Assembly (NCBI GenBank): GCA_034723395.1
Contig: JAYEOW010000001.1
Location: 1-23,040 of the forward strand
Length of the DNA: 23,040 nt
Reading direction: 5' to 3'
From: Candidatus Margulisiibacteriota bacterium
Lineage (GTDB): Bacteria; Margulisbacteria; WOR-1; O2-12-FULL-45-9
Numbering within the stretch: position 1 is the first letter of the stretch; each line of letters opens with the position of its first letter. The translations under genes were made by a program, and so were the position numbers. Below are positions 5,516 to 19,296 of the stretch, one piece after another. The notes beneath the pieces are model-generated. The model searched no databases. It saw nothing but the letters and a program-made list of their open reading frames with translations, and had not been told where the DNA came from.

Positions 5516-6745
5516 TTAATATATTTCGTCCCATGTTTCAATATCGGTAGCTTCGGCCGTCCCGCTCCCCGATTCTAACCCAGGGATTAAGGTCTGATCG
5601 ACCAACTCTGGGGACAAATTAATATCTGAATTTTCCCCGATACTATCTACAAATCCGGCAATAATATTCCCGTCAAAATCGGTATTATTTCCTAAGATAA
5701 GAGTTCCTTCGCAGAAAAGAAGACCATTAAAATCGATATTATTTCCGATATCGATATCTCCGGAGGTAATAAACGAGGTCCCTTCGCCCGCGCTGATTTC
5801 ATCGCCCGCCTCAGCATTGTTCCCCACATCAAACCCTGTAGACGAATACCATATATTATTTTTACCAATAATCACGTTATTATCTATCGTGATCAATCCA
5901 TCAGCTATAACTGAAAAATTATCACCGATGACAACATTGTTATTTACCACAAATGTTCCCGTGGCGACGATAGTAGCCGATCCGGTAATACTAATATTTG
6001 CATTGTTCCCAAATGCGGCATCACCATTGACATAATAAAGGCCCGACAGCGTCCTGTTGCCGTTCCAGCTCTGATTCCCGCTCGGATAAGTTGCAGCTAT
6101 CGCTAATTGATCGTCATAATATGTGGTATCAATAAAAGGCGCAGTTTCGGGAGTAGGGACATGTGTCTCAATCGTCCCGGAAACACCTCCAGTATCGCCA
6201 GACACATCACCAGTAGATTGAGTGTCCCCGTTAATTGTAACGTTACTACCTACATCAATATCATTATCCGCAAAAAGATCTCCGGTAATCGTAACGTTAT
6301 TATCTATTTGGGTAGCATCACCCCCTCCGCCAATTCCTCCCCCACCCCAATACATGACATACTCATCCTCGAAGGACCATCCGCCGCTTTTAACAATATT
6401 AGCCTGGAGCATTCGTTGATAGGTCGTCCCCTCAACCGTATAATACGCCGTTACCGTTACCGTAATAAAATTTGCCGATTCACCGGTGGTGGCGATCGAA
6501 AAAACACCGTCGGAAAATTGGCCCGTAGCCTGCGCTGGAGGGCTTGACCAATCATCATCTACTTTTAATTGCCTTAGATAATACTGGAATCCGGCATTCG
6601 CAATGTAAAACGCGTTTAAGGATTCATAATTCTTTACCGAAATATGCGATCCGGAAGAGACCAGCGTAGTAATGGTAACCGCAAATAAAGTAACGGCAAC
6701 AACAATAAAAACGGTGGCAATTAGCGTAAATCCTCTTTTTTTCAT
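5516..6745 (-). CDS. PilX/GspK-like minor pilin with acidic Asn/Gly-rich repetitive C-terminal domain
   Basis: MKKRG|FTLIA class III signal lacking Glu+5; AFYIANAGF is PilX N-terminal-like; repeated (G/D)NN turns. SD GGAGG upstream. Confidence 0.75.
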   Translation of the reverse strand: MKKRGFTLIATVFIVVAVTLFAVTITTLVSSGSHISVKNYESLNAFYIANAGFQYYLRQLKVDDDWSSPPAQATGQFSDGVFSIATTGESANFITVTVTAYYTVEGTTYQRMLQANIVKSGGWSFEDEYVMYWGGGGIGGGGDATQIDNNVTITGDLFADNDIDVGSNVTINGDTQSTGDVSGDTGGVSGTIETHVPTPETAPFIDTTYYDDQLAIAATYPSGNQSWNGNRTLSGLYYVNGDAAFGNNANISITGSATIVATGTFVVNNNVVIGDNFSVIADGLITIDNNVIIGKNNIWYSSTGFDVGNNAEAGDEISAGEGTSFITSGDIDIGNNIDFNGLLFCEGTLILGNNTDFDGNIIAGFVDSIGENSDINLSPELVDQTLIPGLESGSGTAEATDIETWDEIY

Positions 6746-7275
6746 TCCATCCTCCTTGTTCTTACCCGGGCGGCAGATTCGATTACAAACCGATTATCTC
6801 CCTTTACCACCATCAGGTCAACACGAATTACCCCGATCGCCTCATTCGAAGCGACGGGATTCCCGTCAGTATCTAAATATGAAAAGATAAGCCCATTACT
6901 CGCATCGAGATCATCAAGCAAAATATCTGAATTGCGATATAAAGAGGTCCCCTCCTGGGAAAAAGTTATGGTATTGCTATTGATATCGGTAAAGGTAACC
7001 TCTTTTGAAGTAAAGGTGGAAATACTGGAATTACCGTCCACCCTCTTTAGCTCGCGGACGACCTTATACATTGCCGATTGCGTGGACATCGCAATCCCCT
7101 TCTGTCCGCTCAAAAAAGCCCAGGTGTCGATTGCTTCCCAGAGGAAAAAAGTAAGCACCGCCGTAATAATAGCAATCAAGGAGATTACGGTAATTAATTC
7201 AATTAGAGTAAACCCTTGCCTGCCGGCTTCGCCCCGAGGCTCAGCCCGAGGGGCAGGCAGGGATTTACTCTTCAT
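6742..7275 (-). CDS. Minor pilin, PilW/GspJ-like, with a palindromic insertion in the leader peptide
   Basis: G|FTLIE prepilin site and hydrophobic helix. ATG 7275 chosen because it follows the upstream stop at 7277; ATG 7284 is an alternative. Confidence 0.8.
   Translation of the reverse strand: MKSKSLPAPRAEPRGEAGRQGFTLIELITVISLIAIITAVLTFFLWEAIDTWAFLSGQKGIAMSTQSAMYKVVRELKRVDGNSSISTFTSKEVTFTDINSNTITFSQEGTSLYRNSDILLDDLDASNGLIFSYLDTDGNPVASNEAIGVIRVDLMVVKGDNRFVIESAARVRTRRME
7213..7262. repeat. Nested palindromic element inside a prepilin leader
   Basis: TGCCTGCC (7217-7224) / GGCAGGCA (7252-7259) inverted repeat separated by a 27-nt GC-rich insert; encodes LPA-PRAEPRGEA-GRQ. Confidence 0.8.
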
Positions 7276-7276
7276 A

Positions 7277-7666
7277 TTAAACATCCGACCTTATTGATTC
7301 TAGGGTGGTTGGAATGCCCAGATCCGGGTGCCGGATCAGGACTTCGATTTTTTTATAGTCCGTGCTGTAGCCTACCGGCGTATCCAGCGCCTCGCCGGAA
7401 ACATAGTTAGAGATTATCTCGTAGCTAAAATCGCTAAGATTTCCGGAAAAATTAGTTTCACTTTCTGAAGTAACATTATTAAAACTTAACGCCATCGTCT
7501 CCTCGAGCTTCCCCTCCGCTAAAGATTGGGCAACCGTAAATATTTCTACATTCACCCCCTTTACCCCGGTCGTTATAAAAACGGCGATCAGCGCGTAAAG
7601 CACGATCGCCAAAACCGTGATCGAAATAACAACCTCGATTAAACTGAACCCGCGTTTATTTTTCAT
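7277..7666 (-). CDS. Minor pilin, PilV/GspI-like
   Basis: MKNKRG|FSLIE, AQSLAEGKLEE, KKIEVLI; 129 aa; second of four prepilins. Confidence 0.8.
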   Translation of the reverse strand: MKNKRGFSLIEVVISITVLAIVLYALIAVFITTGVKGVNVEIFTVAQSLAEGKLEETMALSFNNVTSESETNFSGNLSDFSYEIISNYVSGEALDTPVGYSTDYKKIEVLIRHPDLGIPTTLESIRSDV

Positions 7667-8166
7667 TGAGCGCTGATTTTCCCCGTATTAGGGATAATTA
7701 TAACTGTTTTTGTCGTTCCGCCAAACTCCACGCTGACTGTTCCGGTATTTACCAGCGGCGAACCGTTCTTATCGTCATAAGGATAGCCAAGGGGATGAAA
7801 TTCTATTTTGTTTCCCCCGTCAAAATAGACCGAATCTATAATTACCCCGCTATATTCATTGGAAATGTCGATGCTAAAATCATTTTGCAGTGCGGAGGGA
7901 TCTTTGATTACCGTATCGGTTACTCCATCGGTAATATAGATTGTATAAAGGTTTACGGGATCGGCTTCAAAGCTTACTCCGTACCATTTCGAGGTAGTAA
8001 GGGCGAGATTTTGAGCATATTTCAGGTCGGCAGCCAACCTTTTTGCCGCCGCGTCTACCCTGACTGGGCCCAAAGAGCCTAAGGCGATCATCGATACGCC
8101 CGCCAGGACCACGATCAACCCTAAAACCACAATAAGCTCTATCAATGAAAAGGCTTTTCTATTCAT
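7663..8166 (-). CDS. Minor pilin, FimT/GspH-like
   Basis: MNRKA|FSLIE, AAKRLAADLKYAQNLA, IEFHPLG, C-terminal TGKI. Confidence 0.85.
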   Translation of the reverse strand: MNRKAFSLIELIVVLGLIVVLAGVSMIALGSLGPVRVDAAAKRLAADLKYAQNLALTTSKWYGVSFEADPVNLYTIYITDGVTDTVIKDPSALQNDFSIDISNEYSGVIIDSVYFDGGNKIEFHPLGYPYDDKNGSPLVNTGTVSVEFGGTTKTVIIIPNTGKISAQ

Positions 8167-8181
8167 TTCTGACCGATTTTA

Positions 8182-8907
8182 TCACCGCGGACCAAACTGT
8201 GCAAACTGTTTTATTTTTAATTTATGTAATACTAATTTCCCGCAAACCAATAATGTCTGGATCCCATAAATTGTGCTCCGCCACGCGTTAATTTCTGAAG
8301 CTTCTTTAAAATACCGGCAAGGGATCGGGATCTCTCCTGCCTTAAATCTAAAGGCAGCCACTTCAGCCAGCACCTCCGTGTCAAAAACAAAATCATTTGA
8401 ATTTAGCTGGTAAGGGATCGTCTCCAAAACTTTTCGGCCAAAAGCGCGCATGCCGGTATGGTATTCAGACAAATCAAGCTTAAATACCAAATTTTCAACG
8501 AACGTAAGAAAACGATTTGATATCAGCTTATAAAAGGGCATTCCGCCGGCGCCGGTTAAAATACGTGATCCGAGCATTACATCTTTCTCGCCCTTAATGA
8601 TCGGACTGATCAGCTCTGAAATCTTAGTCGCGTCGTACTGCCAATCGGGGTGGACCATAATGATCACATCCGCCCCTATCTTTAACGCCTCTCCATAAAG
8701 CATCTTCTGATTTCCGCCGTATCCCAAATTCTGCGGAGTCTTTAAGACGCGGATATCAAGCGAGGTCGCTATTTCAACCGTTCTGTCGGTCGAACAATCG
8801 TCGCCCAGGATTACTTCTGACACTAAATTTTTTGGAATATCCTGAAAGGTCTTTTCCAAAGTCTTTTCGGCATTATAGGCCGGCATAATTACGATAATCT
8901 TTGCCAT
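8182..8907 (-). CDS. Glycosyltransferase family 2 (polyprenol-phosphate glycosyl synthase, DPM1-like)
   Basis: IMPAYNAE, DDCSTD, NLGYGGNQK, HPDWQYD, GSR, FVFDTE. ATG 8907 follows GGAGG. Confidence 0.9.
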   Translation of the reverse strand: MAKIIVIMPAYNAEKTLEKTFQDIPKNLVSEVILGDDCSTDRTVEIATSLDIRVLKTPQNLGYGGNQKMLYGEALKIGADVIIMVHPDWQYDATKISELISPIIKGEKDVMLGSRILTGAGGMPFYKLISNRFLTFVENLVFKLDLSEYHTGMRAFGRKVLETIPYQLNSNDFVFDTEVLAEVAAFRFKAGEIPIPCRYFKEASEINAWRSTIYGIQTLLVCGKLVLHKLKIKQFAQFGPR

Positions 8908-10343
8908 ATCCTCCACCCTTTGATCGATTTATCCTGACGATAATACAATTTTAAGTATTCTGCAAGATTTTTATAGTAAACTTCTTTATTAACCCAAATA
9001 ATATATTTCGGCCGGTTCGCTTTTAACTCCTTAAGCATCTCAATACGCCGGGCTTTATTATGAAAAAGTGGATAATAGTATATAAAGCGCGATGCCGACG
9101 CTCTATTCGAATAAAAATAGACCTCCGGCTCCGCCCCCCAGATGAATACTTTTTGATCAGGTTTGGTATTTTTTTCCACAAATGCTGCTACCTCTTTAGC
9201 TACCACAAAATTATTAATACCATATTTTCTAATTGATATATTATCCGGCGAAGCTGTATAAAAATCCTTCTCATAAGAAATGGTCATCCCCGCCATGATA
9301 AAGGTGATCATTAAAATGAAAACTTTGAACTGATTATGTTTCAAGTTAATGATCACCAACGCTGAGAGGAACGAAAGCCCCGGAATCGCCTGAATAAAAT
9401 AATGACCGTAAAAGACCTTGCCCAAGATAACCCCAACGATCGAAAAGAGCGCCCAGAATCCAATCAGGAGGTTCTTATCGCTTCTCTCCCGCATAATAAT
9501 GAATAATAGGGCGATAATCGATAAAAACCAAAGGATCAAATTCTCATTTATTACAACTTTGTAGAACTGGGCCCATTGCCACGGCTGATGCGACAGGTAA
9601 CCGACATTTTCCAGGAACATAACATTAATAAATTCCGGCAAGGCATTGTTCAACCAAAAATAGAGTGTAAATAAAAGAGGAAAGATTGCAAATCCTGCAA
9701 GCAACCTCACCCCTTTCTTGCGCCTTCGGCGCAATTCATTCCCCTCTCCATCTTCGATGGAGAGGGGTGGCACGAACGAAGTGAGTGACGGGGTAAGGAC
9801 AACAAAGAAAAACAATGCTAAGAAATTCAAAAAAGCCACCTGCTTGATCATTACCGCCAAACCAGAAAATAATCCAGCCCAGAATAAATCCCATTTATTA
9901 TTTGATCGAATTGCAAAAAATAACGCTAGAAGGATCGGCAGCACCAAAAAGGTTTCAGTATTTGCCGAGGTCCCCTGAATCAAAGCTCCACCTGAAAAAA
10001 CCGCGTAGAAAAAGGCAGAAAGTAATCCACCAACCCTCCCCCATAATTTCGAACCGATTAGGAACATAATAAAAGTAAGGATCAAACTATAAAATAAGGT
10101 GAAATATCGGATACTCGCCGCGCTCTCACCGAAAAGTTTAAATATCCCCGCATAGATAAAATAGATCGCGGGCGGTTTATGGTCGTAGATATCACGATAC
10201 GGGACCTGGCCAACCGCCATCCTTTGAGCAATATAGGCATACGCCCCTTCATCCCGTTCCAACGGTTCCCCCAAAAAAGGGACCCGGAGAAATATTTGAA
10301 GCACCATGATCAGTAAAAGAATAATAATTGTTCTGTTTTTCAT
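8889..10343 (-). CDS. GT-C membrane glycosyltransferase (ArnT/PMT-like) with a palindromic insertion
   Basis: ERDEGAY, DHKPP, NTETF, multiple TM helices, soluble C-terminal domain. ATG 10343 overlaps the upstream TGA (ATGA). Confidence 0.85.
   Translation of the reverse strand: MKNRTIIILLLIMVLQIFLRVPFLGEPLERDEGAYAYIAQRMAVGQVPYRDIYDHKPPAIYFIYAGIFKLFGESAASIRYFTLFYSLILTFIMFLIGSKLWGRVGGLLSAFFYAVFSGGALIQGTSANTETFLVLPILLALFFAIRSNNKWDLFWAGLFSGLAVMIKQVAFLNFLALFFFVVLTPSLTSFVPPLSIEDGEGNELRRRRKKGVRLLAGFAIFPLLFTLYFWLNNALPEFINVMFLENVGYLSHQPWQWAQFYKVVINENLILWFLSIIALLFIIMRERSDKNLLIGFWALFSIVGVILGKVFYGHYFIQAIPGLSFLSALVIINLKHNQFKVFILMITFIMAGMTISYEKDFYTASPDNISIRKYGINNFVVAKEVAAFVEKNTKPDQKVFIWGAEPEVYFYSNRASASRFIYYYPLFHNKARRIEMLKELKANRPKYIIWVNKEVYYKNLAEYLKLYYRQDKSIKGWRIWQRLS
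9705..9798. repeat. Multi-hairpin palindromic element inside the GT-C gene
   Basis: Terminal IR CCTCACCCC/GGGGTAAGG (1 mismatch); hairpins TTGCGCC-ttc-GGCGCAA (9718-9734) and CCCCTCTCCATC-ttc-GATGGAGAGGGG (9741-9767). Confidence 0.88.
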
Positions 10344-11551
10344 GCTAAATTGCTTACAAACCATTTTGCCAGCCTGATCGAAGCATTTATCCCTCTATCC
10401 TGCGGGTAGATCTGAGTGTTAGAGACCAGAAAGAGATCCTTTGCAATATGAAAAGATGGTATTTTTTTAGAATATCCCAGAGTAGGGATTGGTTGCGCAT
10501 ATTTTGCGCGGAAAACCGAATAACCGGACAGATTTTTATCTTCAAATTCAGGATTGATCGTTTTCAATCCCTCAAGATAGCGCCGATAGATCTCCTGATC
10601 GCTCATTTTCCACTCCGGTCCTTCATGACCAACATAGCTTGAAAGATAGACAACCCGATATCCGCCGTAACCGGAATCGTCGAAGGCGTTGGTCTGTTCC
10701 ACCATCACACAAAAAGGGAGATTATTATCTCCGATATTAGTCCAATAATAGTTAGTCACCGGACACCTTGTTTTTACCATTACACAAATATTTCCGGCAT
10801 ACTTAATATCCTTGCCCGGATAAAGATCAGGAGCTGTAATAATTGTCATATCAAATCCGGAGACCGGATAAGCATCTACCCTCGAATTAAGTTTTATCTC
10901 CCCCCCCATCTTTGTAACCCGATCGGCCAGCGCATCGATTAAAACCTTATAGCCCCCTTTTAAATAACCGAGCTTTTCACACAATCCAAAACGGCTGCGC
11001 GATTTCGCCCGGGCGATTATTCTCGCCCACACCCATGAGGCCGGGATCTCGTCCGCCTGCTCGCCAAACTTGGCATATAATAACGGACTCCATACTTTTT
11101 CGCATATTCGCTTCCCCAAATTATTGGTTAACCAATCAACCGCGCTGATCTTTTCCAGCGGACGCCAATCGGCGATCCTTTTTGCCTTAATGCTAAAAAG
11201 CCCGAGTTTTATCCGATCGGCAATCGGCAATGGAGGGAAAGATAACAGGTCTAAAGGGGTAGTAAAAGGATAAATTCGGTTCCCGGAAAAGAATCCCATC
11301 TTTGGATAAGCCCAATATAATTTATCCGAAATTCCAAGTTCGCTTAAGAGCTGGACCGCCTGCTTATCTTGCGAGAAAAAATGATGGTAGAACTTTTCAA
11401 GGTAACTATTCTCAAATTTAAAACCGGCAGCTAGCCCCCCCAATTGTTCTTGACGCTCAAAGATTGTGGCTTTAATCCCTTTTTTCAGCAAGAAATAAGC
11501 GGTGGTAAGCCCGGTAATCCCTCCGCCAATAATAGCCGCGCTCTTTTTCAT
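10340..11551 (-). CDS. FAD-dependent oxidoreductase (protoporphyrinogen oxidase/amine oxidase-like fold)
   Basis: IIGGGITGLTTA, FERQEQLGGLA, LEKFYHHFF, LGYLKGG, AQPI, IYPQDRGIN. Confidence 0.85.
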   Translation of the reverse strand: MKKSAAIIGGGITGLTTAYFLLKKGIKATIFERQEQLGGLAAGFKFENSYLEKFYHHFFSQDKQAVQLLSELGISDKLYWAYPKMGFFSGNRIYPFTTPLDLLSFPPLPIADRIKLGLFSIKAKRIADWRPLEKISAVDWLTNNLGKRICEKVWSPLLYAKFGEQADEIPASWVWARIIARAKSRSRFGLCEKLGYLKGGYKVLIDALADRVTKMGGEIKLNSRVDAYPVSGFDMTIITAPDLYPGKDIKYAGNICVMVKTRCPVTNYYWTNIGDNNLPFCVMVEQTNAFDDSGYGGYRVVYLSSYVGHEGPEWKMSDQEIYRRYLEGLKTINPEFEDKNLSGYSVFRAKYAQPIPTLGYSKKIPSFHIAKDLFLVSNTQIYPQDRGINASIRLAKWFVSNLA

Positions 11552-11560
11552 GACTCACCA

Positions 11561-11577
11561 ATTATATCTGATATAAT
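11561..11577. promoter_or_regulatory. Bidirectional palindromic -10 pair between divergent genes
   Basis: ATTATATC-T-GATATAAT is a perfect 8-bp inverted repeat that gives TATAAT on both strands. On + it is TGnTATAAT, 7 nt before ATG 11585; on - it is 9 nt before ATG 11551. Confidence 0.7.
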
Positions 11578-11584
11578 AGTCAGG

Positions 11585-12736
11585 ATGAAAGCGTTATTTG
11601 TTAATCCAAACTGGAAAGAGCTGGTCAGCAAAAAGGAAAAACTGGTCAATCGTCCCTGGCCACCGCTTGACCTCCTAAATTATGCGGCAACTTTCCCCGA
11701 AAGTGAAATCCTGGACTTGCGCGCCAAGAATAGACCCTTGGAATATATCAATAATAAGATACGCGAAAGCGATACCGTCTATATCACTTCATCGCCGATG
11801 GACCGCTGGCAGTGCCCCAACCTTGGAATAGATGATTTTGTCCAATTTATAAACTCGCTGGTTGATAAGGAAAAAATCCATCTGCTCGGAGTCCTTCCTT
11901 TGCTATATCCAGAAAAGCTCCTGCAGAAGACTAAGGTAAAGGGGATCGTTAAAGCGCTTGCCGAAGGCCCTCTCCCCGCTTATGAAAAGATAGATCTTGA
12001 TAATTATCATTACGAATTGATGGGTGGTCGCTTCGCCATCCTAGAAACTGCCCGCGGTTGCCCATACCAGTGCTCATTCTGCTTAAAAATCATGTACGGG
12101 GACAAGGTTATCAAGAAAGACATCCAAAAAGTAAAAGAGGAGATCGATCTATTGGTTAAATTGGGCGCGAAAAATATATATTTTATCGACCTCGAATTAA
12201 CCATCGAAAAAGAACGGGTGAGAGCGATCGCTAATTATATCATTGAAAAAGAATATAAGTTTAACTGGTGCTGCCAGACCAGGGCGGACGCAATTGACCG
12301 GGAACTTCTGGCATTGATGAAAAGCTCCGGCTGTAAACTGATCCACTTTGGGATTGAATCGGGATCGCAAAGGGTGCTCGATTCAACAAACAAGAAAATA
12401 TCGATACAAAAAATTCGGTTAGGGATAAAATTAACCAAAGAAGCAGGGATTAAAACTGCCGGATTCTTTATGTTCGGCTTTCCTGGAGAGACTAAACAAG
12501 AAATGGAACAAACCATTGAATTCGCTAAAGAGTTGGACGTTGATTACGCCTCTTTTCACGCCGTCATCCCTTACCCGGGGACAAAAATAACTAAAGCGCC
12601 GGATGAATCGGTCTCAAAATTAGTAAAAAAAGCTTATATAAATTTCTATTTTAGGCCAATTCGGATCATTTCCGCATTACTGAGGCCGAAACTCCTTTTT
12701 AATCAGGTCAAATTGTTTTATAATTTTATTAGATGA
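11585..12736 (+). CDS. Radical SAM protein, B12-binding-domain (class B-like) family
   Basis: ETARGCPYQCSFC (CxxxCxxC), WCCQTRAD, FGIESGSQ, FMFGFPGET, PYPGT. Start moved to ATG 11585 (MKALFVNP) because the longer ORF overlaps the divergent gene. Confidence 0.88.
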   Translation: MKALFVNPNWKELVSKKEKLVNRPWPPLDLLNYAATFPESEILDLRAKNRPLEYINNKIRESDTVYITSSPMDRWQCPNLGIDDFVQFINSLVDKEKIHLLGVLPLLYPEKLLQKTKVKGIVKALAEGPLPAYEKIDLDNYHYELMGGRFAILETARGCPYQCSFCLKIMYGDKVIKKDIQKVKEEIDLLVKLGAKNIYFIDLELTIEKERVRAIANYIIEKEYKFNWCCQTRADAIDRELLALMKSSGCKLIHFGIESGSQRVLDSTNKKISIQKIRLGIKLTKEAGIKTAGFFMFGFPGETKQEMEQTIEFAKELDVDYASFHAVIPYPGTKITKAPDESVSKLVKKAYINFYFRPIRIISALLRPKLLFNQVKLFYNFIR

Positions 12737-13419
12737 GACCATTTTGCATAAACATCCCGATCTATAATGAAGAGGCGATCCTGGTTAAGAATATTGAACG
12801 CTTGATCGATTTTTTGGATAAACTAAAGACTGATTATGAGATCATTATCGTAAGCAATGGATCCACCGACAAAAGCATCCTTCTGGGAGAAGGTTTGCAG
12901 GACAAACATTCCCGGGTAAAATTTTTCTCTTTGCCCAAAAAAGGGGTTGGCCGCGCTTTTCGAACAGCAGTTGAAGCCGCAAAGTATGGCCATATCATCT
13001 CATTAGACGCAGATCTCTCAGTCGATCTTTCATTCATCAAGGAAGCAAATACTCTGCTTGAAAATAATGTAATGGTAATCGGCTCAAAGATCATGGGCAG
13101 TCAAAAGAGGAGTTTTATGCGGAAGATCGGGAGCGGCATCTATATTTATTTTACCAAACTCTTTTTCCGCGTATCGCTGCACGATTTTTCGATCGGGGCC
13201 AAGGGATTCCAGCGCGGATTTGTTTTAAAGAATATCGAAGCGATTGACCAGCATACCAGCTATGTCTTAAATCTCGCCCACGCCGCTACCCGGGAAGGAG
13301 AAAAAGTAACTGAGATCCCGATAAAGTGTATAGACCTTCGCAGAAGCAGGTTTAATCTTTTAACCGAAGCGCTCTATCGCTTCAGCATGCTTTTTAAATT
13401 GGCCCTGCGTAAGAAGTAG
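12733..13419 (+). CDS. Glycosyltransferase family 2
   Basis: IPIYNEE, SNGSTD, GVGRA, LDADL (DxD), IGSK. ATGA overlap with the radical SAM gene. Confidence 0.88.
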   Translation: MRPFCINIPIYNEEAILVKNIERLIDFLDKLKTDYEIIIVSNGSTDKSILLGEGLQDKHSRVKFFSLPKKGVGRAFRTAVEAAKYGHIISLDADLSVDLSFIKEANTLLENNVMVIGSKIMGSQKRSFMRKIGSGIYIYFTKLFFRVSLHDFSIGAKGFQRGFVLKNIEAIDQHTSYVLNLAHAATREGEKVTEIPIKCIDLRRSRFNLLTEALYRFSMLFKLALRKK

Positions 13420-15431
13420 GCCCCGACAAATATCCAGCCAAAGAAAGAGATAACCTCGCCGGCATAATTATATTTACTCTTGCAAAAGGTCAGCTTTACA
13501 TTTTTCTGCTTCGGGTAAACCAGCATGAATGTCGGCGCAGTTAAATATATCCGATCCGCCCCCGCAACCCTCCAGTTTGGATGGTACGATACTTTGATAA
13601 TATGCGGATGGCCGATCAGTGAAGTTTCAAACTCGATCGTTTCAGCTCCAATTTTCTCCGAGATCTTATAACGGGGAACGCTTAAGGGTTTCTGTTGTAC
13701 TTTAACTGCGTCTTTAGTCCTTAATTTAAAACGGGAACGATCCCCTTTCCCCTTTATTACCGGCACATTTTGTATTTCCGGCACTTTAAACCAGGCATAA
13801 AAATCCTTTTTCCAATTTTTACCGGTATAGATATTCGGTTCGTATCTGGCAGGTACTACATGACGCGGATCGCTCCCGACCACTTTATAAATGCTACAAT
13901 CCCCAAATTTCTTCTGGAACCTAAATTCCGGCCTCCCTTTGATCGTTTTTTTTACTTTATCACTTCTTACAATAAATTGCGTGACCGCAAAATCCCTCAA
14001 ATGCTGAGCACCGTTCTCCAAGTTGAACGGTGAGACCAGATAGCTCCAAAAAGGCGCGGAAACATCCTTGGATATCTCTGATTGAATATAAAAGACAAAC
14101 GGGCCGGTGATCGAAGACTGCATATACAATCCTTCAAGCGTATCTCTGCCCGAAAACATCTTCAATGATTCAAATATCCTTTGTGTCCCGAGCGATTCAT
14201 AAGCTATCGCATTCTCATAAACTACCCTCCCCCCATCATCACTCTCCCTCAGGTAATCAAACATATCTTTAACTTTTGGCCAGGTCTCCTTCTGTTCAAA
14301 CCCTGAATAATTCCAATCGATCCAATTCTTTATATAATTTGAATTTTCATTGACCCATAGAAAAGTGACCAAGACGAGAATGGCCGGGATAAGAGGTGAG
14401 TATCTGAGTTTTGCCGAGACTGTTCCAATCCCGATCGCTCCAATAATGGTCAAAAACAGCTGGGAAAAGGTTAAAAAACGGATATCGACCAGGCCAACTT
14501 TTGGCCCGGCAAAGTATAATATGCCCGCCATTAGAAGGATGAAAGCGAAAAAGAGCGTTCTTCGCTCTTTGATAAATGCAACCAGGCTAAAAATAGAAAG
14601 GATAAAGAAAGGAATTAAGATCGGTGGGAAGATCTCCCAGATCGAACCGAAAGCCCAAACAATGTGGAAAGGGGTGACAAAAGGAATATTTGCAATAAAT
14701 GGAAGCAGCCAAAAGGCGAGAAGGATCCCACCTAAGGCCCCAACTTTAAAAAGGTACCAGATATTTTTTAAAAATGGCCGGCTGCTGAATATATAAAACA
14801 ATGAGAGAAAAACAAAAAAGACCAGGGTATAGCCGTGGCTGAATCCCATCAGGAAAAAGAGAAAGGCATTTAACACTACCCACTTATTCTCTTTTACCCC
14901 TTGATATACGGTTGCTAAAAAAACCATAAAGATTGCCAAACTAAAAGAGAACGAAAATTCACCCGCCAGGGTACTCGGGATGTTGCCGCCCCACATCGAA
15001 TTATTCTCATTAAAAAGAAAAGCAAGCGAAAATATTGCCCCTAACACAGGAACGGGGAACGAATAGCGTAAGATCTTAAACATCAGATAGACCGAAAGCG
15101 GCAAAAGGAAGGTTCCCAGCACGGTGATCAGCTTAAAACTTACCTGAAGCGGGATAATATAACCGAGCAACGCCATAAAGATAAAGGTCAAGGGAAAATA
15201 GTGGTAGAAAACGGGAAATCCGCAATAATTCGCCTGCATCCACCCCATAACCTCTAATTTAGGAAGAAGAACCTCTTTTAGATATTGTGCCGTATAGTAA
15301 TGGGATGCGGTATCTCCCCCCGTAGTAATTGTTTTTAAAAACAGAAGGCTCGGCTTAAAAAAGGTAAACAAGAAAATCCAGATAAATAGAACAATTAAAA
15401 TATCAATGATTAGCTGTTTATTTACCTTCAA
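13374..15431 (-). CDS. Polytopic membrane protein, GT-C-like (YfhO / 'PTPS-related membrane protein' type)
   Basis: TM + GGDTASHY, W...GFPVFYHYFPL, many TM helices, large soluble domain, SYHPNWR and a final TM helix. Start uncertain (TTG 15431 or 15458). Confidence 0.7.
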   Translation of the reverse strand: MKVNKQLIIDILIVLFIWIFLFTFFKPSLLFLKTITTGGDTASHYYTAQYLKEVLLPKLEVMGWMQANYCGFPVFYHYFPLTFIFMALLGYIIPLQVSFKLITVLGTFLLPLSVYLMFKILRYSFPVPVLGAIFSLAFLFNENNSMWGGNIPSTLAGEFSFSFSLAIFMVFLATVYQGVKENKWVVLNAFLFFLMGFSHGYTLVFFVFLSLFYIFSSRPFLKNIWYLFKVGALGGILLAFWLLPFIANIPFVTPFHIVWAFGSIWEIFPPILIPFFILSIFSLVAFIKERRTLFFAFILLMAGILYFAGPKVGLVDIRFLTFSQLFLTIIGAIGIGTVSAKLRYSPLIPAILVLVTFLWVNENSNYIKNWIDWNYSGFEQKETWPKVKDMFDYLRESDDGGRVVYENAIAYESLGTQRIFESLKMFSGRDTLEGLYMQSSITGPFVFYIQSEISKDVSAPFWSYLVSPFNLENGAQHLRDFAVTQFIVRSDKVKKTIKGRPEFRFQKKFGDCSIYKVVGSDPRHVVPARYEPNIYTGKNWKKDFYAWFKVPEIQNVPVIKGKGDRSRFKLRTKDAVKVQQKPLSVPRYKISEKIGAETIEFETSLIGHPHIIKVSYHPNWRVAGADRIYLTAPTFMLVYPKQKNVKLTFCKSKYNYAGEVISFFGWIFVGAYFLRRANLKSMLKR

Positions 15432-16326
15432 CTTTTTTCTTTCCCGCAAATTGTGCAAATATAAAAAAGAGGACCATTAAAATCATGGCCGCAATTATGA
15501 GCAAATAATTGATGCCAAAAAGTGTTTTTTCTTCTTTTACAGTAATTATCCCGGGAGTAATATTCGTCTTATGGGCCCCGTCCTGCTCATATTCTGATAT
15601 CGCAAAAACCTGATAGCTGCTCCCGCTTAGGGCGGAAAAATTTTCGAGCGGGAATCGGATCTCTTTTTTCGATTTCCCCGGCAGATCAAAGGTAAAAGGC
15701 CCCTCCTTAACCGTCAATTCGCGCGGAACGGCCAAACAGGTCGTGATCTTTTTTGTGCTCTTTTCAATGTTCCGCAAAGTCAGCTTAAGCGCCCCCTCTT
15801 TCCATAATTTTGTATTCCCCATTTTCCCAAAGATCGATCCCGGCGCACCTTTTGTCTTAAAAGGGAATACCTGGCAGGTCAGCGCGGAAAATGGATACTG
15901 GTTTGCATCCGCATAATGCATCAGCAGGGTTAAGGGGTACTCACCGGGAGATTTAAATCTTAGCCTTACCGGCAGATTTGATTGATAGCTTTCATTTACC
16001 CCCAGCTCCCCCACTTTTTTTAACAGGAACTTTTTACCGCCGACCGCAATTTCCCCTTGAACATTATAAGCAGCTTCATCCCCCTTATTGATCACGTTCA
16101 CATCCACCAAGATAGTGTTGCTTACAATTTCAGAAGAGAGTTTTGTTTCAAGCGAGATGTAACCGGCGAAAGAGGGAAAAGCTAAAAATAAAAGAATAGT
16201 AATACCTAATAAGACCCTCACCCAACTTCTTCTTAGTCCCCCAATTATCCTATTCGTCCCTCTCCCACAGGGAGAGGGAGTAGAAGAATAAATATTGGTA
16301 AATAAATACTTGGGTAAGGGTAACAT
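15418..16326 (-). CDS. Exported, C-terminally anchored beta-rich protein of unknown function with a palindromic insertion in the signal peptide
   Basis: h-region LLGITILLFLAFPSFA, Ig-like-looking segments (VNVINKGDEAAYNV; LTLRN), C-terminal TM helix with basic tail. Confidence 0.7.
   Translation of the reverse strand: MLPLPKYLFTNIYSSTPSPCGRGTNRIIGGLRRSWVRVLLGITILLFLAFPSFAGYISLETKLSSEIVSNTILVDVNVINKGDEAAYNVQGEIAVGGKKFLLKKVGELGVNESYQSNLPVRLRFKSPGEYPLTLLMHYADANQYPFSALTCQVFPFKTKGAPGSIFGKMGNTKLWKEGALKLTLRNIEKSTKKITTCLAVPRELTVKEGPFTFDLPGKSKKEIRFPLENFSALSGSSYQVFAISEYEQDGAHKTNITPGIITVKEEKTLFGINYLLIIAAMILMVLFFIFAQFAGKKKVEGK
16214..16321. repeat. 108-nt palindromic element, same type as 9705-9798
   Basis: Terminal IR ACCCTCACCCAA/TTGGGTAAGGGT (1 mismatch); central hairpin TCCCTCTCCC-aca-GGGAGAGGGA (16257-16279). 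Confidence 0.85.
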
Positions 16327-16330
16327 CCCA

Positions 16331-18385
16331 CTACCCCGGGAGGACGATTTTTCTAAAATCGGCCACGCTTAGAAATAATTTTTCAATCGACTTTAATAGT
16401 GCCAGCCGGTTTAACTTGAGTTTTTCGTCTTTGTGCATGACCAAAACTTTATCGAAGAAAAGCTCAAGCGGATCGGTAAAGAAGGTCAAGGCTTTAAGCG
16501 CTTTTTCCCATGCCTCTTCTTTAATCGCCTCCCCTACTTCCCAGTTTAGCTTCATATAAAGCTCAAACAAGCTTTTTTCTTCTTTCTCTACCAGGTCTTC
16601 TTCGATCACTTCTTCCCGAGCAGGATTGTTCGCAATGCGGGACACGCGCTCGGCCGATTTAACAACTCCCGGGAACCATTTCTCACCGGTCGAAAGATCA
16701 ATCACCTTAGCTTTCTTTGAACAATCCAGGATGTCGTTAAAATCGGAAAGAACCGCGTCCACCACATCGTAGCGGGTCCCGCTATCGAGCAGCGCCGGTC
16801 TTAATCTTGCCGCTATAAAATTTAAGATAGCGGATTTTACTTTTGGGGATACCGGAAAGCTATGCTCGATCGCTTCATCCAGTAAAAGATCGATCTCCTT
16901 TTCAACGATGATCCGGATGATCCCGTGCGCGGCGCGGCGCAGGCCGTACGGATCGGCCGATCCGGTGGGGATCGCCCCCACGCTGAAACATCCGACAATA
17001 GAATCGATCCGATCGGCCAGGGAAACGATCGTCCCCTCCATCGAGCTTGGGATCTTATCTTCCGCATAACGCGGGAGATAATGTTCGCGTATTCCTTCGG
17101 CAACTTTTGGGTCTTCGCCGGATAATAATGCGTAATGCTTACCGATGATCCCCTGCAGGATCGGGAATTCATAAACCATTTTCGTAGTCAGGTCCGCCTT
17201 ACAAAGCTCGGAGATCCTTTTTACGGTCCGCAAACCTTCTCCATCAAATCCGATCCGTTTTGCGATCCATTCGGCGAGTTTTCCGATCCGTTTGGATTTA
17301 TCGGCCATCGATCCGAGCTTTTCGAAGTAACCAACCCTCTCGAGATCGGGGATGCGCAGCTTTAACGGCTGTTTTTTATCCTCTTCAAAGAAGAATTTAG
17401 CATCCGAAAGCCTGGCGGTAAGCACTTTTTGGTTCCCTGCTACCACCGATTTATTTTTACAGCCATCGGTCACTACTACAAAACGCCCGGCCAGCTTACC
17501 TTTATTATCTAAGATCGGAAAATATTTTTGGTTCTTCTTCATCGAAGTGATTAACACTTCCTGCGGGATCTTTAAGAAAGATTTATCGATCGCCCCGACA
17601 TAAACAATTGGATCTTCCACTAAGAAAGTGACTTCTGAGAGAAGCTCTGCCTCAATGTGCGCATTCCCCTTAACCTTTTTTGCTTCCGCCTCCACCATCT
17701 TTTTGATCTTCTCTCTCCGCTCATCCTGATCGACAACTACTCCGTATTTCAGAAGGAATTTTTTATAAGAAGGTAGGGACAGGGTTTGTCCCTGTCCGGC
17801 TAAACGGACAGCCACGAGGGCTGTCCCTACATTTCGATGAGGACTCGTCTTATTCCCCGAAACTATCCCAGCCAGTTTAAACTTAACAGTCTTATTACCA
17901 CACAACGCCACGATCCAATGGATCGGCCGGATAAATTTAAAGTCGATGTCTCCCCAACGCATTGCCAGCGGCTGATAGATCGAAGAGACAATTTCGGGGA
18001 ACAGCTCAGCCAAAACTTTTTCGGCCGTTTTCCCTTTCTTATGAACCTTGGCGTATACGTAATTATCGCGGACCTCGAGGTTCTCAATCCCCACCCCCTG
18101 GCTTTTAGCAAAGCCCAGTGCGGCCTTGGTTGGATTCCCTGAGGGATCGTAGGCGACCTTAGCCGGAGGACCTTTGGCATCCAAGGAAACATCTTTCTGT
18201 TTCGGTTCCAGGTCTTCGATATAAAGGGTTAAGCGGCGGTAAGTCCCGAGAGTTTCGATCTTTTTATAAGATAGTCTCTCCCTCTTAAGCTTTTCCTGCG
18301 CCTTCTCTTTTAGATCTTTTAGGAATCCCGGCATAAATCGCGCCGGGATCTCTTCGCATCCTATTTCAAGCAGACTGTTCAACAT
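16331..18385 (-). CDS. glyS: Glycine--tRNA ligase beta subunit, with an internal REP doublet
   Basis: [15 protein letters not shown]...[57 protein letters not shown]...NRLALL. Confidence 0.96.
17773..17830. repeat. GTAG-type REP doublet (REPIN-like) inside glyS
   Basis: GTAG-GGACAGGG-tttgt-CCCTGTCC, 8-nt spacer, GGACAGCC-acgag-GGCTGTCC-CTAC; perfect 10-bp terminal IR. Confidence 0.9.
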
Positions 18386-19217
18386 ATTGCCTCGCACACC
18401 TTCTGGCTAATTTGCGGATCTTAAGGATATAAGCCATCCTTTCGGTAACTGATACTGCTCCCCGCGCGTCGAGGAGGTTAAAAACGTGAGAACATTTAAG
18501 AACATAATCGTAAGCAGGAAAAACTAATTCTTGGTCTAAGGACTTATAAGCTTCACTTTCGTACATTTGGAAAAGCTTGCTTAAAGTTTCGATATTTGCG
18601 GTTTCGAAATTGTATTTTGAATGCTCTCTCTCTTGCGGAAGGTAAATATCGCCGTATTTTACCCCTTTGGTCCACTGAATATCGTAGACGTTATCAACTT
18701 TCTGGATAAACATCGCGAGCCGTTCGAGTCCATAGGTTAATTCAACCGCGACCGGTTTACAGGGAAAGCCGCCGCATTCTTGAAAATAAGTAAATTGAGT
18801 GACCTCCATCCCTTCGGCCCATACTTCCCAACCTGTACCCCAAGCGCCTAGCGTCGGTGATTCCCAGTTATCTTCAACGAACCGGACATCGTGTTTTGCC
18901 GGTTCGATCCCGATCGCGCGAAGTGAATTTAGATAAGCATCTTGAACATCCATCGGAGAAGGTTTTAGAACTACTTGATATTGGAAATAGTGGAATAAAC
19001 GATTTGGATTTTCACCGTATCTGCCATCGGTCGGCCGGCGGACAGGATCGATATAGGCGACGTTCCATTTTTTAGGTCCGAGGACGCCGAAAAAGGTTGC
19101 CGGAGACATCGTCGCCGCCCCTTTTTCGAGGTCGTACGGCTGGCGGATAACGCACCCATATTCCGCCCAATAACGGTTTAAATTGTCGATGATTTCCTGG
19201 AAGTTTAACGCTTTCAC
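18366..19217 (-). CDS. glyQ: Glycine--tRNA ligase alpha subunit
   Basis: [69 protein letters not shown]. Start GTG 19217 (283 aa); the longer ORF upstream is trpD antisense. Confidence 0.96.
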
Positions 19218-19227
19218 CCTGGAGCAA

Positions 19228-19256
19228 ATATTATCATAAAAGAAGAGCGAATTCAA
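19228..19256 (-). promoter_or_regulatory. Putative sigma-70 promoter for glyQS
   Basis: Minus strand TTGAAT, 17-nt spacer, TGn-TAATAT, 10 nt before the GTG; no clear SD. Confidence 0.5.
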
Positions 19257-19279
19257 AGATTTAACTTTTCCCAATAGAA

Positions 19280-19288: not shown

Positions 19289-19296
19289 CTCGTATC

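What the first reader, a model, noticed from the sequence alone, without database searches (positions are those of the whole stretch)
7213..17830. Four frame-preserving palindromic elements of three types sit inside protein-coding genes
Seen: GC-rich hairpin elements at 7213-7262, 9705-9798, 16214-16321 and 17773-17830, all inside intact ORFs; I saw none in the few intergenic gaps. Two lie in peptides that are cleaved off (prepilin leader, signal peptide n-region) and two lie in probable loops. Known: REPs are normally extragenic, and coding palindromes are best known from Rickettsia (RPEs). Inference: in a genome with almost no intergenic DNA, several non-autonomous repeat families persist as translated inserts at tolerant protein sites, adding new peptide and mRNA structure. 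No mobilising enzyme is encoded in the window.
Basis: partly seen in the sequence, partly recalled or inferred. Interest (0 to 1): 0.85.

Follow-up and report, generated by a model that had tools for sequence, protein, structure and literature searches.

The report
Selfish palindromic repeats translated inside genes
Small hairpin-forming selfish DNA repeats of an uncultured Margulisbacteria genome mostly fill the tiny gaps between genes, but some sit in frame inside working genes at harmless spots such as export signals and surface loops, which is a known phenomenon seen here in a new phylum with a possible new partner enzyme.

Summary
All four hairpin elements are real, lie where stated inside open frames, and are multi-copy. 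They belong to four families, not three. E4 is a GTAG-tagged REP doublet; a relative carries its RAYT transposase flanked by the same REPs. E2 and E3 are two related elements whose ends and core use the same words as E. coli BoxC/PIT/TMECO "triplex" repeats. E1 is a 20-bp palindrome with a piece nested at its centre.

Orthologues give empty sites for E1, E2 and E3. The glyS loop is filled by different elements, or in a different orientation, in separate lineages.

Genome-wide, 37 of 58 E2/E3-type loci are intergenic. A minority are in frame: five internal, seven at the start of signal peptides or membrane anchors, plus two prepilin leaders. E3 could instead be 5' untranslated, using a GTG inside its end. 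But 6 of 6 such copies are open and 0 of 8 intergenic copies are.

All 5 DUF559 nuclease genes in the genome are bracketed by these repeats.

This scan has noted both patterns before, on other genomes.

The parts
7213..7262 (-). E1. A GC-rich palindrome of the CCTGCCTGCC/GGCAGGCAGG family with a 27-nt piece nested at its centre. It encodes SLPAPRAEPRGEAGRQ between MFNMKSK and GFTLIEL of a prepilin-type leader.
   Evidence: Fold z -5.5. A 43-nt copy at 100% identity on C38 and an 89% copy on C6, both intergenic. The minimal 20-bp palindrome occurs elsewhere. The 13 orthologous loci aligned lack this insert; several have short MKKGFTLIE-type leaders. No in-frame start codon lies between the element and GFTLIEL (sequence).
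6742..7284 (-). Host of E1: a pseudopilin or minor pilin gene in a pilM/N/O/secretin cluster.
   Evidence: Pfam N_methyl at residues 22-44. Neighbours are PilM_2/PilN, PilO and Secretin.
9705..9798 (-). E2. A family A element: ends CCTCACCCC/GGGGTAAGG, core hairpin CCCCTCTCCATC-TTC-GATGGAGAGGGG, and a GCGCC..GGCGC side hairpin. It is read as ..LTPSLTSFVPPLSIEDGEGNELRRRRKKGVR..
   Evidence: Fold z -5.0. Copies at 92-96% identity on C33, C31 and C3, plus 81-95% copies in this genome and in other genera. 12 of the 13 aligned orthologous loci lack an insert at this site; the clearest empty sites are L015-L021. G004 carries a different, larger hairpin insert in the same loop.
8889..10364 (-). Host of E2: a PMT_2 / GT39-like membrane glycosyltransferase. 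The insert lies in a short basic loop between hydrophobic segments.
   Evidence: Pfam PMT_2 at residues 62-194, ending just before the insert. Alignment.
16212..16321 (-). E3. A family B element: ends CCCTCACCC/GGGTAAGGG and core hairpin TCCCTCTCCC-ACA-GGGAGAGGGA. It is read as PLPKYLFTNIYSSTPSPCGRGTNRIIGGLRRSWVR between ML and the hydrophobic core of a signal peptide.
   Evidence: nhmmer model of family B, 96.6 bits. Fold z -3.7. 12 of 13 aligned orthologues start MK(K/R) followed directly by the hydrophobic core; G011 has other hairpins there. In G024 the orthologous gene carries a family A copy in frame at the same place.
16219..16221 (-). Alternative GTG start codon inside the 3' end of E3 (GG GTG AGG). 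It would give MRVLLGITILLFLAFPSFA and leave E3 untranslated.
   Evidence: Read. See the rival explanation.
15418..16326 (-). Host of E3: a secreted CARDB-like protein directly downstream of glyS. Its ATG lies 4 nt after the glyS stop codon.
   Evidence: CARDB, E 5.7e-4, below the curated cut-off. 27 of 31 genomes searched, this one included, have an orthologue.
17773..17830 (-). E4. A doublet of two GTAG-tagged REP units in inverted orientation (17773-17797 on +, 17806-17830 on -), REPIN-like. It is read as [19 protein letters not shown] in GlyS.
   Evidence: Fold z -4.7. The unit pattern occurs in 11 of 31 genomes with 0 control hits. The same site is filled in G012, G003, G024, G017, G020 and L072, in the opposite orientation. 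A RAYT gene flanked by these REPs is present in G003.
16331..18397 (-). Host of E4: glyS (glycyl-tRNA synthetase beta subunit), single copy in this genome.
   Evidence: Pfam tRNA_synt_2f at residues 9-550 in one stretch, E 2.6e-193. One match in G000. Solved GlyRS beta chains show a 9-residue gap opposite the insert.

Best explanation
The four features are copies of four families of small, non-autonomous, hairpin-forming selfish repeats that pervade this Margulisbacteria genome.

- E4 is a GTAG-tagged REP doublet of the kind moved by RAYT (Y1) transposases.
- E2 and E3 belong to two related families. Their ends (CCCTCACCC/GGGTGAGGG) and core hairpin (CCCTCTCC../..GGAGAGGG) use the same words as BoxC/PIT/TMECO repeats. 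Their long forms carry a DUF559 (Vsr-like) nuclease gene.
- E1 is a short palindrome that also nests in the loops of the other elements.

New copies land mostly at gene boundaries and in the loops of existing hairpins. In a genome with almost no spacer DNA, some land in the first codons or in loops of genes.

Only insertions that keep the frame, carry no stop codon and add peptide at a harmless place survive. Such places are the part of a Sec signal peptide or prepilin leader before the hydrophobic core (later cut off), linkers between domains, and variable surface or cytoplasmic loops. The inserts are then translated as passenger peptide. They are tolerated, not useful.

Shown here: copy number, palindromy, empty sites in orthologues, open frames, real host genes, the RAYT link for E4 in a relative, and the DUF559 link for the E2/E3 families.

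Inferred: that the inserts are translated, that they are cleaved off with the leaders, and which enzyme moves which element.
For: Multi-copy families.
- Self-BLAST finds 408 repeated intervals. The two largest clusters (52 and 31 intervals) contain E2 and E3.
- 33 pairs bounded by the two ends.
- 14 full-length family B copies.

Real hosts. Pfam domains lie on both sides of, or across, the inserts:
- GlyS
- TsaD, split into two stretches
- a HemN-like radical-SAM protein
- MetH, between S-methyl_trans (13-285) and Pterin_bind (327-549)
- a TrpE-like protein, between its two domains

Empty sites in orthologues exist for E1, E2 and E3.

Independent hits at the same sites in other genera.
- The GT39 loop in G004 and the E3-host signal peptide in G011 carry other hairpins.
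- The E3-host signal peptide in G024 carries a family A copy in frame: MR[TSPRHSLRSCHPSPSKMERGMNSPTKSEKKGVR]CILAFC...
- The glyS loop carries the REP doublet in 7 of 35 distinct alleles and a CCCTCTCCC-type element in 2 more. These are scattered on the GlyS tree, with at least 4 changes forced by well-supported branches. G000's copy is inverted relative to the others.

Selection on frame. The 6 family B copies that are followed directly by a hydrophobic core have 0 stops in the PSP..WVR frame. All 8 intergenic copies are closed in it (Fisher p = 3.3e-4). One in-frame copy has a 6-nt deletion, a multiple of three.

Signal-peptide bias. All 7 N-terminal in-frame copies precede a hydrophobic segment, against about 28% of all genes (P = 1.2e-4). 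Two prepilin leaders carry E1-type sequence.

Enzymes.
- The RAYT gene at G003:C99 is flanked by E4-type REPs.
- All 5 DUF559 matches in G000 lie between family A, B or C ends and hairpins.
- In 30 DUF559 loci of this order, 18 have the repeat words within 150 nt on both sides, 8 on one side and 4 on neither. Word density is 14.0 per kb in the flanks against 0.66 per kb in the rest of the loci.

Nesting in hairpin loops: E1 itself, C48:16486, C52:3754 and the G017 glyS REP.
Against: - There is no expression or protein evidence. The only run that holds the window is DNA, kept as contigs.
- For E3 and the other signal-peptide copies, a GTG-AGG in the element's end could be the real start.
- No closely related genome (same genus) is held, so exact insertion boundaries, target duplications and ages are unknown.
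- No intact RAYT was found in this genome. The only match is a Y1 gene whose frame is broken, flanked by unrelated hairpins.
- The DUF559 link is an association of position, not a shown activity.
- E4 replaces the native GlyS loop rather than adding to it. Simple insertion does not explain that.
- The REP in glyS is about 90-95% identical between genomes whose glyS genes are about 60% identical at the DNA level. This calls for recent spread or a constraint that I cannot explain.
Confidence: 0.8

Rival explanations
1. E3, and the other copies at signal-peptide starts, are not translated. Translation starts at the GTG inside the element's 3' end (GG GTG AGG), giving a normal short signal peptide (MR plus hydrophobic core). 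The element is then 5' untranslated or intergenic DNA, like most copies.
For: - Every such copy offers GTG-AGG directly before the hydrophobic core.
- A purine-rich run lies 8-12 nt upstream of that GTG in several copies (read).
- Three other copies scored as 'N-terminal' clearly sit upstream of a gene's own start.
- C24:31208 lies about 15 nt before an ATG-AAA-AAA start.
- Di Nocera et al. 2013 (PMC3733652, passages read) warn that many REPs at predicted N-termini are probably extragenic.
Against: - 6 of 6 such family B copies are open from an upstream start codon through the element; 0 of 8 intergenic copies are.
- The upstream ATG sits where orthologues start, right after the glyS stop. In G024 it overlaps that stop as ATGA.
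- The one length variant differs by 6 nt.
- The rival cannot apply to E1, E2 or E4.
Confidence: 0.3
2. The elements are kept because they do something useful where they sit, for instance as mRNA or DNA hairpins that tune translation, stability or termination, or as functional peptide segments. They would then not be mere tolerated passengers.
For: - The glyS REP keeps both hairpins in all 7 alleles that carry it. G024 has a paired change (ACA to ACG with CCT to CCC) that keeps the stem and is synonymous on both sides.
- The same glyS site is occupied in several lineages.
- Intergenic copies abut stop codons, where a hairpin could act as a terminator or stabiliser.
Against: - 25 of 35 distinct GlyS alleles have neither a REP nor another element; one further allele (L064) keeps half a REP unit.
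- Most orthologues of the other three hosts lack the inserts.
- Different, unrelated elements occupy the same sites.
- No Rfam family matches the window.
- The terminator-like scan is not enriched over shuffles (14 sites against a mean of 15.1).
Confidence: 0.1
3. The coding palindromes are not mobile-element copies. They arose locally, for example by template switching during replication, which creates inverted repeats in place.
For: Some copies show complementarity reaching beyond the conserved ends into the flanks: AGAGTAAA/TTTACTCT at E1, and 10 of 10 flank bases at C7:84727.
Against: - The interiors are conserved between dispersed copies: 100% over 43 nt for E1, 92-96% over about 90-98 nt for E2, and 84% over 106 nt for E3.
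- The same families occur in other genera.
Confidence: 0.03

Closest known systems
Rickettsia palindromic elements (RPE; Ogata et al. 2000 and 2002, as summarised in the MITE review PMC10969869, passages read)
   Same: Palindromic, non-autonomous repeats of about 100-150 bp, inserted in frame in unrelated housekeeping genes in a small, gene-dense genome.
   Different: - A different phylum and unrelated sequence families.
- Here most copies are extragenic.
- There is a strong bias to signal-peptide and leader starts.
- Candidate partner enzymes can be named.
- Sequence similarity to RPEs was not tested, because no RPE sequence was at hand.
GTAG-tagged REPs and REP doublets (REPINs) moved by RAYT transposases, including intragenic REPs (Di Nocera, De Gregorio and Rocco 2013, PMC3733652, passages read). 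The term REPIN (Bertels and Rainey) is recalled, not read.
   Same: - E4 has two 25-nt palindromic units, each starting GTAG, in inverted orientation.
- The family is multi-copy in relatives.
- A RAYT gene is flanked by the same units in G003.
- That paper also reports REPs inside genes, tRNA synthetase genes among them, and many at predicted N-termini.
   Different: - In this genome the family has only 2 loci and no intact cognate RAYT was found.
- The glyS copy replaces the native loop.
- The glyS site is filled in several separate lineages, and in both orientations.
BoxC / PIT / TMECO intrastrand-triplex repeats (Holder et al. 2015, PMC4666352; outline, Table 1 and passages read)
   Same: Families A and B are built from the same words as the 23 E. 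coli TMECO sequences: a CCCTCTCCC..GGGAGAGGG hairpin followed by GGGTGAGGG. That paper reports very high numbers of such motifs in Cyanobacteria, the sister phylum.
   Different: - In E. coli the motif is 34-37 nt, 'always located intergenically', and was not found with mobile elements.
- Here the words frame 55-156-nt elements with two inverted ends.
- Some copies are in frame in genes.
- Long forms enclose a DUF559 nuclease gene.
- Triplex formation was not tested here.
MITEs of bacteria, for example QMITE1/2 of Coxiella (PMC5896051, passages read)
   Same: Small size, terminal inverted repeats, no transposase of their own, overlap with gene ends, and occasional in-frame insertions.
   Different: - No target-site duplication could be seen.
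- No insertion sequence with matching ends was found.
- DDE_Tnp_1, rve, DDE_3 and TnpB-type genes were not found in this genome.

Membership tests
REP / REPIN with RAYT (applies to E4) | Short (20-40 nt) palindromic unit tagged with GTAG at its 5' end | tested here: met
   Both units start GTAGGGACAG and fold as hairpins.
REP / REPIN with RAYT (applies to E4) | Two units in inverted orientation forming a larger hairpin (doublet) | tested here: met
   Units at 17773-17797 (+) and 17806-17830 (-). The same doublets occur in G003, G017 and G019.
REP / REPIN with RAYT (applies to E4) | Many dispersed copies in the genome | tested here: inconclusive
   Only 2 pattern hits in G000. Relatives have up to 18 (G019) and 14 (G003) units. 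The reversed control pattern gave 0 hits.
REP / REPIN with RAYT (applies to E4) | A RAYT (Y1 transposase) gene flanked by the same REPs | tested here: met
   Met in relative G003:C99. Three REP units and one inverted unit lie upstream, and a degenerate inverted unit lies downstream, of a 168-aa Y1 gene. Not met in G000, whose only Y1 match is 79 aa, then out of frame, and flanked by other hairpins.
REP / REPIN with RAYT (applies to E4) | Extragenic location | tested here: not met
   This copy lies inside glyS. The second G000 copy (C52) lies between convergent genes.
BoxC / PIT / TMECO triplex repeats (applies to E2, E3) | CCCTCTCCC..GGGAGAGGG hairpin plus a G-rich third segment, GGGTGAGGG | tested here: met
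   These words are present in E2, E3 and 33 end-bounded elements. They were compared with Table 1 of PMC4666352. In family B the third segment lies about 35 nt from the hairpin, not 2-4 nt as in E. coli.
BoxC / PIT / TMECO triplex repeats (applies to E2, E3) | Folds into an intrastrand triplex | not testable with these tools
   Only duplex hairpin folding could be computed.
BoxC / PIT / TMECO triplex repeats (applies to E2, E3) | Always intergenic (as reported for E. coli) | tested here: not met
   By my reading, 5 internal and 7 N-terminal in-frame loci among 58.
MITE (applies to E2, E3) | Terminal inverted repeats and a size under about 300 bp | tested here: met
   Ends (C)AGCCCTCACCC / GGGTGAGGGCT(G). 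Sizes 55-156 nt.
MITE (applies to E2, E3) | Target-site duplication | tested here: inconclusive
   No consistent direct repeat flanks the 14 family B copies (read). Exact empty sites are lacking.
MITE (applies to E2, E3) | A longer, autonomous relative with the same ends that encodes the mobilising enzyme | tested here: inconclusive
   Long forms with the same ends and core hairpins exist at C29:116015-116604, C46:13000-13517 and C16:8445-8862. They encode DUF559, which is not a known transposase. No DDE, rve or TnpB genes were found.
Rickettsia palindromic elements (RPE) | In-frame insertion of a palindromic repeat in protein-coding genes without loss of the gene | tested here: met
Rickettsia palindromic elements (RPE) | Sequence membership in the RPE-1 to RPE-10 families | not tested
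The host phylum differs.

The most novel reading that the evidence does not exclude
Families A, B and a third family C would be nuclease-less miniature derivatives of an undescribed class of mobile cassette. In that cassette, BoxC/PIT-type hairpin-plus-G-tract ends bracket a DUF559 (Vsr-like PD-(D/E)XK) nuclease gene, and the nuclease spreads both the cassette and its miniatures.

This would give the long-orphan BoxC/TMECO repeats a partner enzyme. It would also explain why such repeats pile up at gene boundaries, in each other's hairpin loops and, as in-frame passengers, in export signals across many phyla.
Probability: 0.35. Interest if true: 0.75.

Novelty: new variant of a known kind. Interest (0 to 1): 0.5.

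Why it matters
- It extends 'coding palindromes' from Rickettsia and a few Proteobacteria to Margulisbacteria, the sister group of Cyanobacteria.
- It shows what fixes where they survive: cleaved export leaders and variable loops.
- It warns annotators that odd proline-, glycine- and arginine-rich N-termini and loop inserts in such genomes are repeat-derived.
- The DUF559 link offers a concrete, testable candidate for the enzyme behind BoxC/TMECO-type repeats. Holder et al. 2015 reported no link between those repeats and transposons, phages or plasmids.
- The glyS loop, filled again and again by the same REP doublet and in both orientations, is a natural system for asking how REPs choose or replace targets.

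Tried and rejected
1. Lys-codon/Phe-Leu-codon complementarity. I tested whether it makes the start of signal peptides intrinsically hairpin-prone and therefore a target. Mean best stem was 2.93 at 191 such junctions, 2.86 at 573 internal control positions and 2.82 at 866 other N-termini (p = 0.20 and 0.10). Not supported.

2. Import of the glyS REP by recombination from another REP-bearing allele. In the closest pair (L012 with REP, L068 without, 87% identical), only the 20 codons left of the insert are unusually diverged (70%). Their nearest relatives there are not REP-bearing alleles. Inconclusive.

3. Target-site duplications. None was evident.

4. Known RNA families. None was found in the window.

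5. Promoter-like and terminator-like sites in 7000-18000. Not above shuffles.

6. Transposases in G000. DDE_Tnp_1, TnpB-type, rve and DDE_3 were not found. The genome is 97% complete in 55 contigs, and repeats are often unassembled.

7. Sequencing runs. No RNA holder is listed. One DNA run (the probable source) is kept as contigs, and no joint skipping an element was seen. Contigs cannot show rare empty alleles.

8. Structure prediction of GlyS (alignment A1) was not available. The 'surface loop' reading therefore rests on length variation and on gaps against solved GlyRS chains.

9. Print searches.
- Repeats inside signal peptides and in Margulisbacteria gave no relevant paper among those listed.
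- The MITE review has 0 mentions of 'signal peptide'.
- 25 papers mention DUF559. I read the one passage each in PMC9403480 and PMC3424549, and neither links it to flanking repeats. For the rest I saw only titles and the start of each abstract.
- Ogata 2002 and the Anabaena short-sequence paper are not held.

Full report
**Observation**

The window is a whole 23-kb contig of a 1.68-Mb, 55-contig genome. Its closest GlyS loci carry titles of Candidatus Margulisiibacteriota / WOR-1 / Saganbacteria.

All four stretches fold much better than shuffled sequence:
- E1: z -5.5
- E2: z -5.0
- E3: z -3.7
- E4: z -4.7

They are among the longest inverted repeats of the window. Each lies in an open minus-strand frame. 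Pfam names the hosts as an N_methyl pseudopilin, a PMT_2 glycosyltransferase, a weak CARDB-like secreted protein, and GlyS.

The rest of the window holds plsY, gpsA, a secretin, pilO, pilM-pilN, two more pseudopilins, glycosyltransferases, a radical-SAM gene, glyQ, trpD and a TPR gene. It holds no transposase.

Logan contigs of the single run that holds the window run through E3 and E4 with no difference, and break at E1 and E2. That run is probably the window's source, so this is not independent DNA.

**The elements are families, four of them**

BLAST of the four elements against the genome finds copies of each. Self-BLAST finds 408 repeated intervals. The two largest clusters, of 52 and 31 intervals, contain E2 and E3.

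Family A (E2) and family B (E3):
- They share ends (C)AGCCCTCACCC / GGGTGAGGGCT(G) and a core hairpin CCCTCTCC(C/A)-loop-(G/T)GGAGAGGG.
- They differ in their arms.
- 33 end-bounded pairs of 55-156 nt are present.
- A profile of family B finds 14 full-length copies among 32 non-overlapping matches.

E1:
- It is a 20-bp palindrome, CCTGCCTGCC-GGCAGGCAGG, with a 27-nt piece at its centre.
- The expanded form recurs on C38 (100% over 43 nt) and C6.
- The minimal palindrome recurs several times.

E4:
- It is a pair of 25-nt GTAG-tagged palindromic units in inverted orientation.
- The unit pattern occurs in 11 of 31 genomes of the order. Counts are up to 18 units in G019 and 14 in G003, but only 2 in this genome. 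The reversed control pattern gave 0 hits.

**Empty sites and repeated hits**

I aligned orthologues from 13 loci for each host.
- E1 host: relatives have short leaders (MKKGFTLIE). Here 16 residues lie between MFNMKSK and GFTLIEL.
- E2 host: 12 of the 13 orthologues lack an insert in the basic loop. G004 has its own larger insert there, made of other GC-rich hairpins.
- E3 host: 12 of 13 orthologues begin MK(K/R) followed at once by the hydrophobic core.
  - G011 has other hairpins at that spot (z -2.9).
  - In G024 the orthologue reads MR[TSPRHSLRSCHPSPSKMERGMNSPTKSEKKGVR]CILAFCMSFAMLASANA. This is a family A copy, in frame, and its ATG overlaps the glyS stop codon.

For GlyS I compared 35 distinct alleles.
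- 25 have a native loop of 42-108 nt between the GHR and YKK anchors.
- 7 carry the REP doublet (102-123 nt).
- 1 keeps half a unit.
- 2 carry a CCCTCTCCC..GGGTGAGGG element.

The doublet stands in place of the native loop rather than being added to it. G000's copy is the reverse complement of the others. G017's copy has an E1-like palindrome nested in a REP loop.

On a quick maximum-likelihood tree with the loop masked, the REP-bearing alleles are scattered. Well-supported branches force at least 4 changes. One REP-bearing allele (L012) has a sister without the REP at about 87% DNA identity. The careful tree search did not finish, so the tree is the quick one.

Solved GlyRS beta chains show a 9-residue gap opposite the insert.

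**Where the copies sit genome-wide**

I used a crude gene model that takes the longest ORFs. It covers 94% of the genome, which is an overestimate.

Of 68 GC-rich perfect hairpins:
- 37 are intergenic
- 11 are internal to genes
- 11 lie within 50 codons of a start
- 8 lie within 20 codons of a stop
- 1 straddles a gene edge

Of 58 loci carrying at least two family A/B words:
- 37 are intergenic
- 3 lie at contig ends
- 2 run into gene ends
- 7 were scored internal
- 9 were scored N-terminal

Reading those 16 sequences, I judge as follows.
- Five are true internal inserts, and Pfam confirms their hosts:
  - the glycosyltransferase
  - a HemN-like radical-SAM protein, before its FFGGGTP motif
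  - MetH, between two domains
  - TsaD
  - a 4624-residue protein
- Seven lie between a start codon with a few residues and a hydrophobic segment: E3, C7:84727, C11:4598, C36:5813, C45:20456, C43:29190 and C48:6752. Their hosts include SLH, DJ-1, Memo-AMMECR1 and YceG/MltG proteins.
- Three lie upstream of a gene's own start.
- One is doubtful.

A TrpE-like gene carries a third hairpin type between its domains.

The eight intergenic family B copies fill gaps that leave 3-158 nt to the flanking ORFs. Most leave under 15 nt, and several abut or supply a stop codon.

**Is the signal-peptide class translated?**

For:
- All seven copies are in one orientation and one frame, ending ..(W/G)VR.
- The six family B copies have no stop in that frame, while all eight intergenic copies are closed in it (Fisher p = 3.3e-4).
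- The one in-frame copy of different length differs by 6 nt.
- About 28% of genes have a hydrophobic N-terminal segment by a simple hydropathy rule. Seven of seven therefore has P = 1.2e-4.
- Two prepilin leaders carry E1-type sequence: E1 itself, and MKKNI[SAGRQ]GFTLIEL on C44.

Against:
- The element's end always offers GTG-AGG just before the hydrophobic core, so a start there would also give a working signal peptide.
- Shine-Dalgarno-like runs are ambiguous at both candidate starts (read).

I put read-through at about 65-70% for E3. E1, E2 and E4 have no such way out if their genes work. glyS is single-copy.

**What moves them**

E4:
- In G003, which is in the same family as G000, a 168-residue Y1 (RAYT-type) gene has three E4-type REP units and one inverted unit just upstream.
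- It has a degenerate inverted unit just downstream. This is the classic RAYT-with-REPs layout.
- G000's only Y1 match is 79 residues and then out of frame. It is flanked by different hairpins.

Families A and B:
- I listed genes bracketed by two repeat loci and found three small ORFs, which Pfam assigns to DUF559.
- Each is laid out as follows: left end, core hairpin, a TATAAT-like box (in two of the three), the ORF, a second core hairpin, then the right end.
  - C29:116015-116604. Its right side is taken by a complete family B copy.
  - C46:13000-13517. The ORF is truncated.
  - C16:8445-8862. This one is family A type.
- On C46 the family B profile matches positions 3-85 on the left and 37-113 on the right, on the same strand. 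Family B therefore looks like the long element with everything between the two core hairpins removed.
- The other two DUF559 matches of the genome lie between hairpins and ends of a third family (AACAACCCCCTCT .. TCTCCCCCTTAT-AAGGGGGAGA). One of them has an E1-type palindrome nested beside it.
- So 5 of 5 DUF559 matches are bracketed. Two of the five look full-length.

Across the order:
- 20 of 31 genomes have DUF559 matches.
- In 30 loci, the repeat words lie within 150 nt on both sides in 18, on one side in 8 and on neither in 4.
- Word density is 14.0 per kb in the flanks against 0.66 per kb in the rest of the same loci.

Distribution of the families:
- Family A is in 24 of 31 genomes, with copies up to 95% identical to E2 in other genera.
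- Full-length family B is nearly confined to G000.

This is association by position. No activity is shown.

**Comparison with what is known**

- In-frame palindromic repeats are known from Rickettsia (RPEs; MITE review PMC10969869, passages).
- They are also known for GTAG/CGTC REPs, including in tRNA synthetase genes. That paper adds the caution that N-terminal cases may be extragenic (PMC3733652, passages).
- The words of families A and B are those of the E. coli BoxC/PIT/TMECO repeats (PMC4666352, Table 1). That paper describes the repeats as always intergenic, not found with mobile elements, and very frequent in Cyanobacteria.
- DUF559 is grouped with Vsr, and with a group I intron homing endonuclease, in the PD-(D/E)XK survey (PMC3424549, one table row).
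- My searches for repeats inside signal peptides, and for DUF559 with flanking repeats, found nothing in print. These searches cover open-access text only.

Earlier notes of this scan report the same two patterns on other genomes: repeats in frame in signal peptides, and DUF559 genes bracketed by BoxC-like repeats. They gave me the BoxC name and that paper. I tested both claims here on this genome and its relatives.

**Verdict**

- Most copies are extragenic.
- There are four families.
- E4 is a REP doublet with a known type of enzyme.
- E3's translation is probable, not certain.
- Candidate mobilising genes exist outside the window.

As coding palindromes this is a new example of a known phenomenon. 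The BoxC-like build of two families, and their DUF559-bearing long forms, are what lift it above the ordinary.

Noticed in passing
G000:C29:116015-116604, C46:13000-13517, C16:8445-8862, C46:19780-20480, C24:24600-25250: All five DUF559 (Vsr-like nuclease) matches of the genome lie inside elements bounded by the same ends and core hairpins as the miniature repeats. Two ORFs look intact and three are truncated.
   Followed up: yes
L142 (G003:C99:5800-8200), about 700-1420: A RAYT-type Y1 transposase gene flanked by E4-type GTAG REP units, in a genome of the same family as the window's.
   Followed up: yes
L135 (G000:C19:36334-39558), 1240-1740 minus strand: The genome's only Y1 transposase match is 79 residues long. 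The conserved C-terminal part (..LWARSYF..YIKNQ) follows in another frame. It is flanked by GGAACCGACA..TGTCGGGAC hairpins unrelated to E1-E4.
   Followed up: partly
L157 (G000:C44:15100-16000), 141-530: A second pseudopilin gene has part of the E1-type palindrome in its leader: MKKNI[SAGRQ]GFTLIEL.
   Followed up: partly
window 17773-17830 compared with L002, L003, L009, L012, L072: [quoted passage not shown] Either it inverted in place between its own inverted ends, or it was inserted independently.
   Followed up: partly
G000:C48:16412-16524; C52:3754-3836; C7:75239-75374; L012 glyS insert: New hairpin pieces sit at the loop of an existing hairpin (palindrome nested within palindrome). This suggests that exposed loops are preferred targets.
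   Followed up: partly
G000, many contigs (for example C4:88230-88338, C23:14183-14235, C28:10399-10444): AT-rich runs of 7-base units (AATGAC/CATTTGT type) lie between genes.
   Followed up: no
G000 contig ends (for example C4:1-201, C16:1-133, C27:1-140, C3:1-909, C5:1-127): Several families of 127-900-bp repeats sit at contig ends and probably mark collapsed insertion sequences. Their ends do not resemble those of the palindromic families. An ISL3-like identity is my recollection and was not tested.
   Followed up: no
G000:C3:4712-4907, C4:105077-105374, C3:8238-8346, C15:2762-2864: A motif CTTCGACTCGCT(C/T)CGCTCGCTCAG lies directly beside several tRNA genes. It also occurs as a piece inside some family A copies.
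   Followed up: no
window 18366-19844 minus strand: The 492-residue ORF is an over-extension. Only its last roughly 294 residues match GlyQ (Pfam tRNA-synt_2e), so glyQ starts near 19250.
   Followed up: partly
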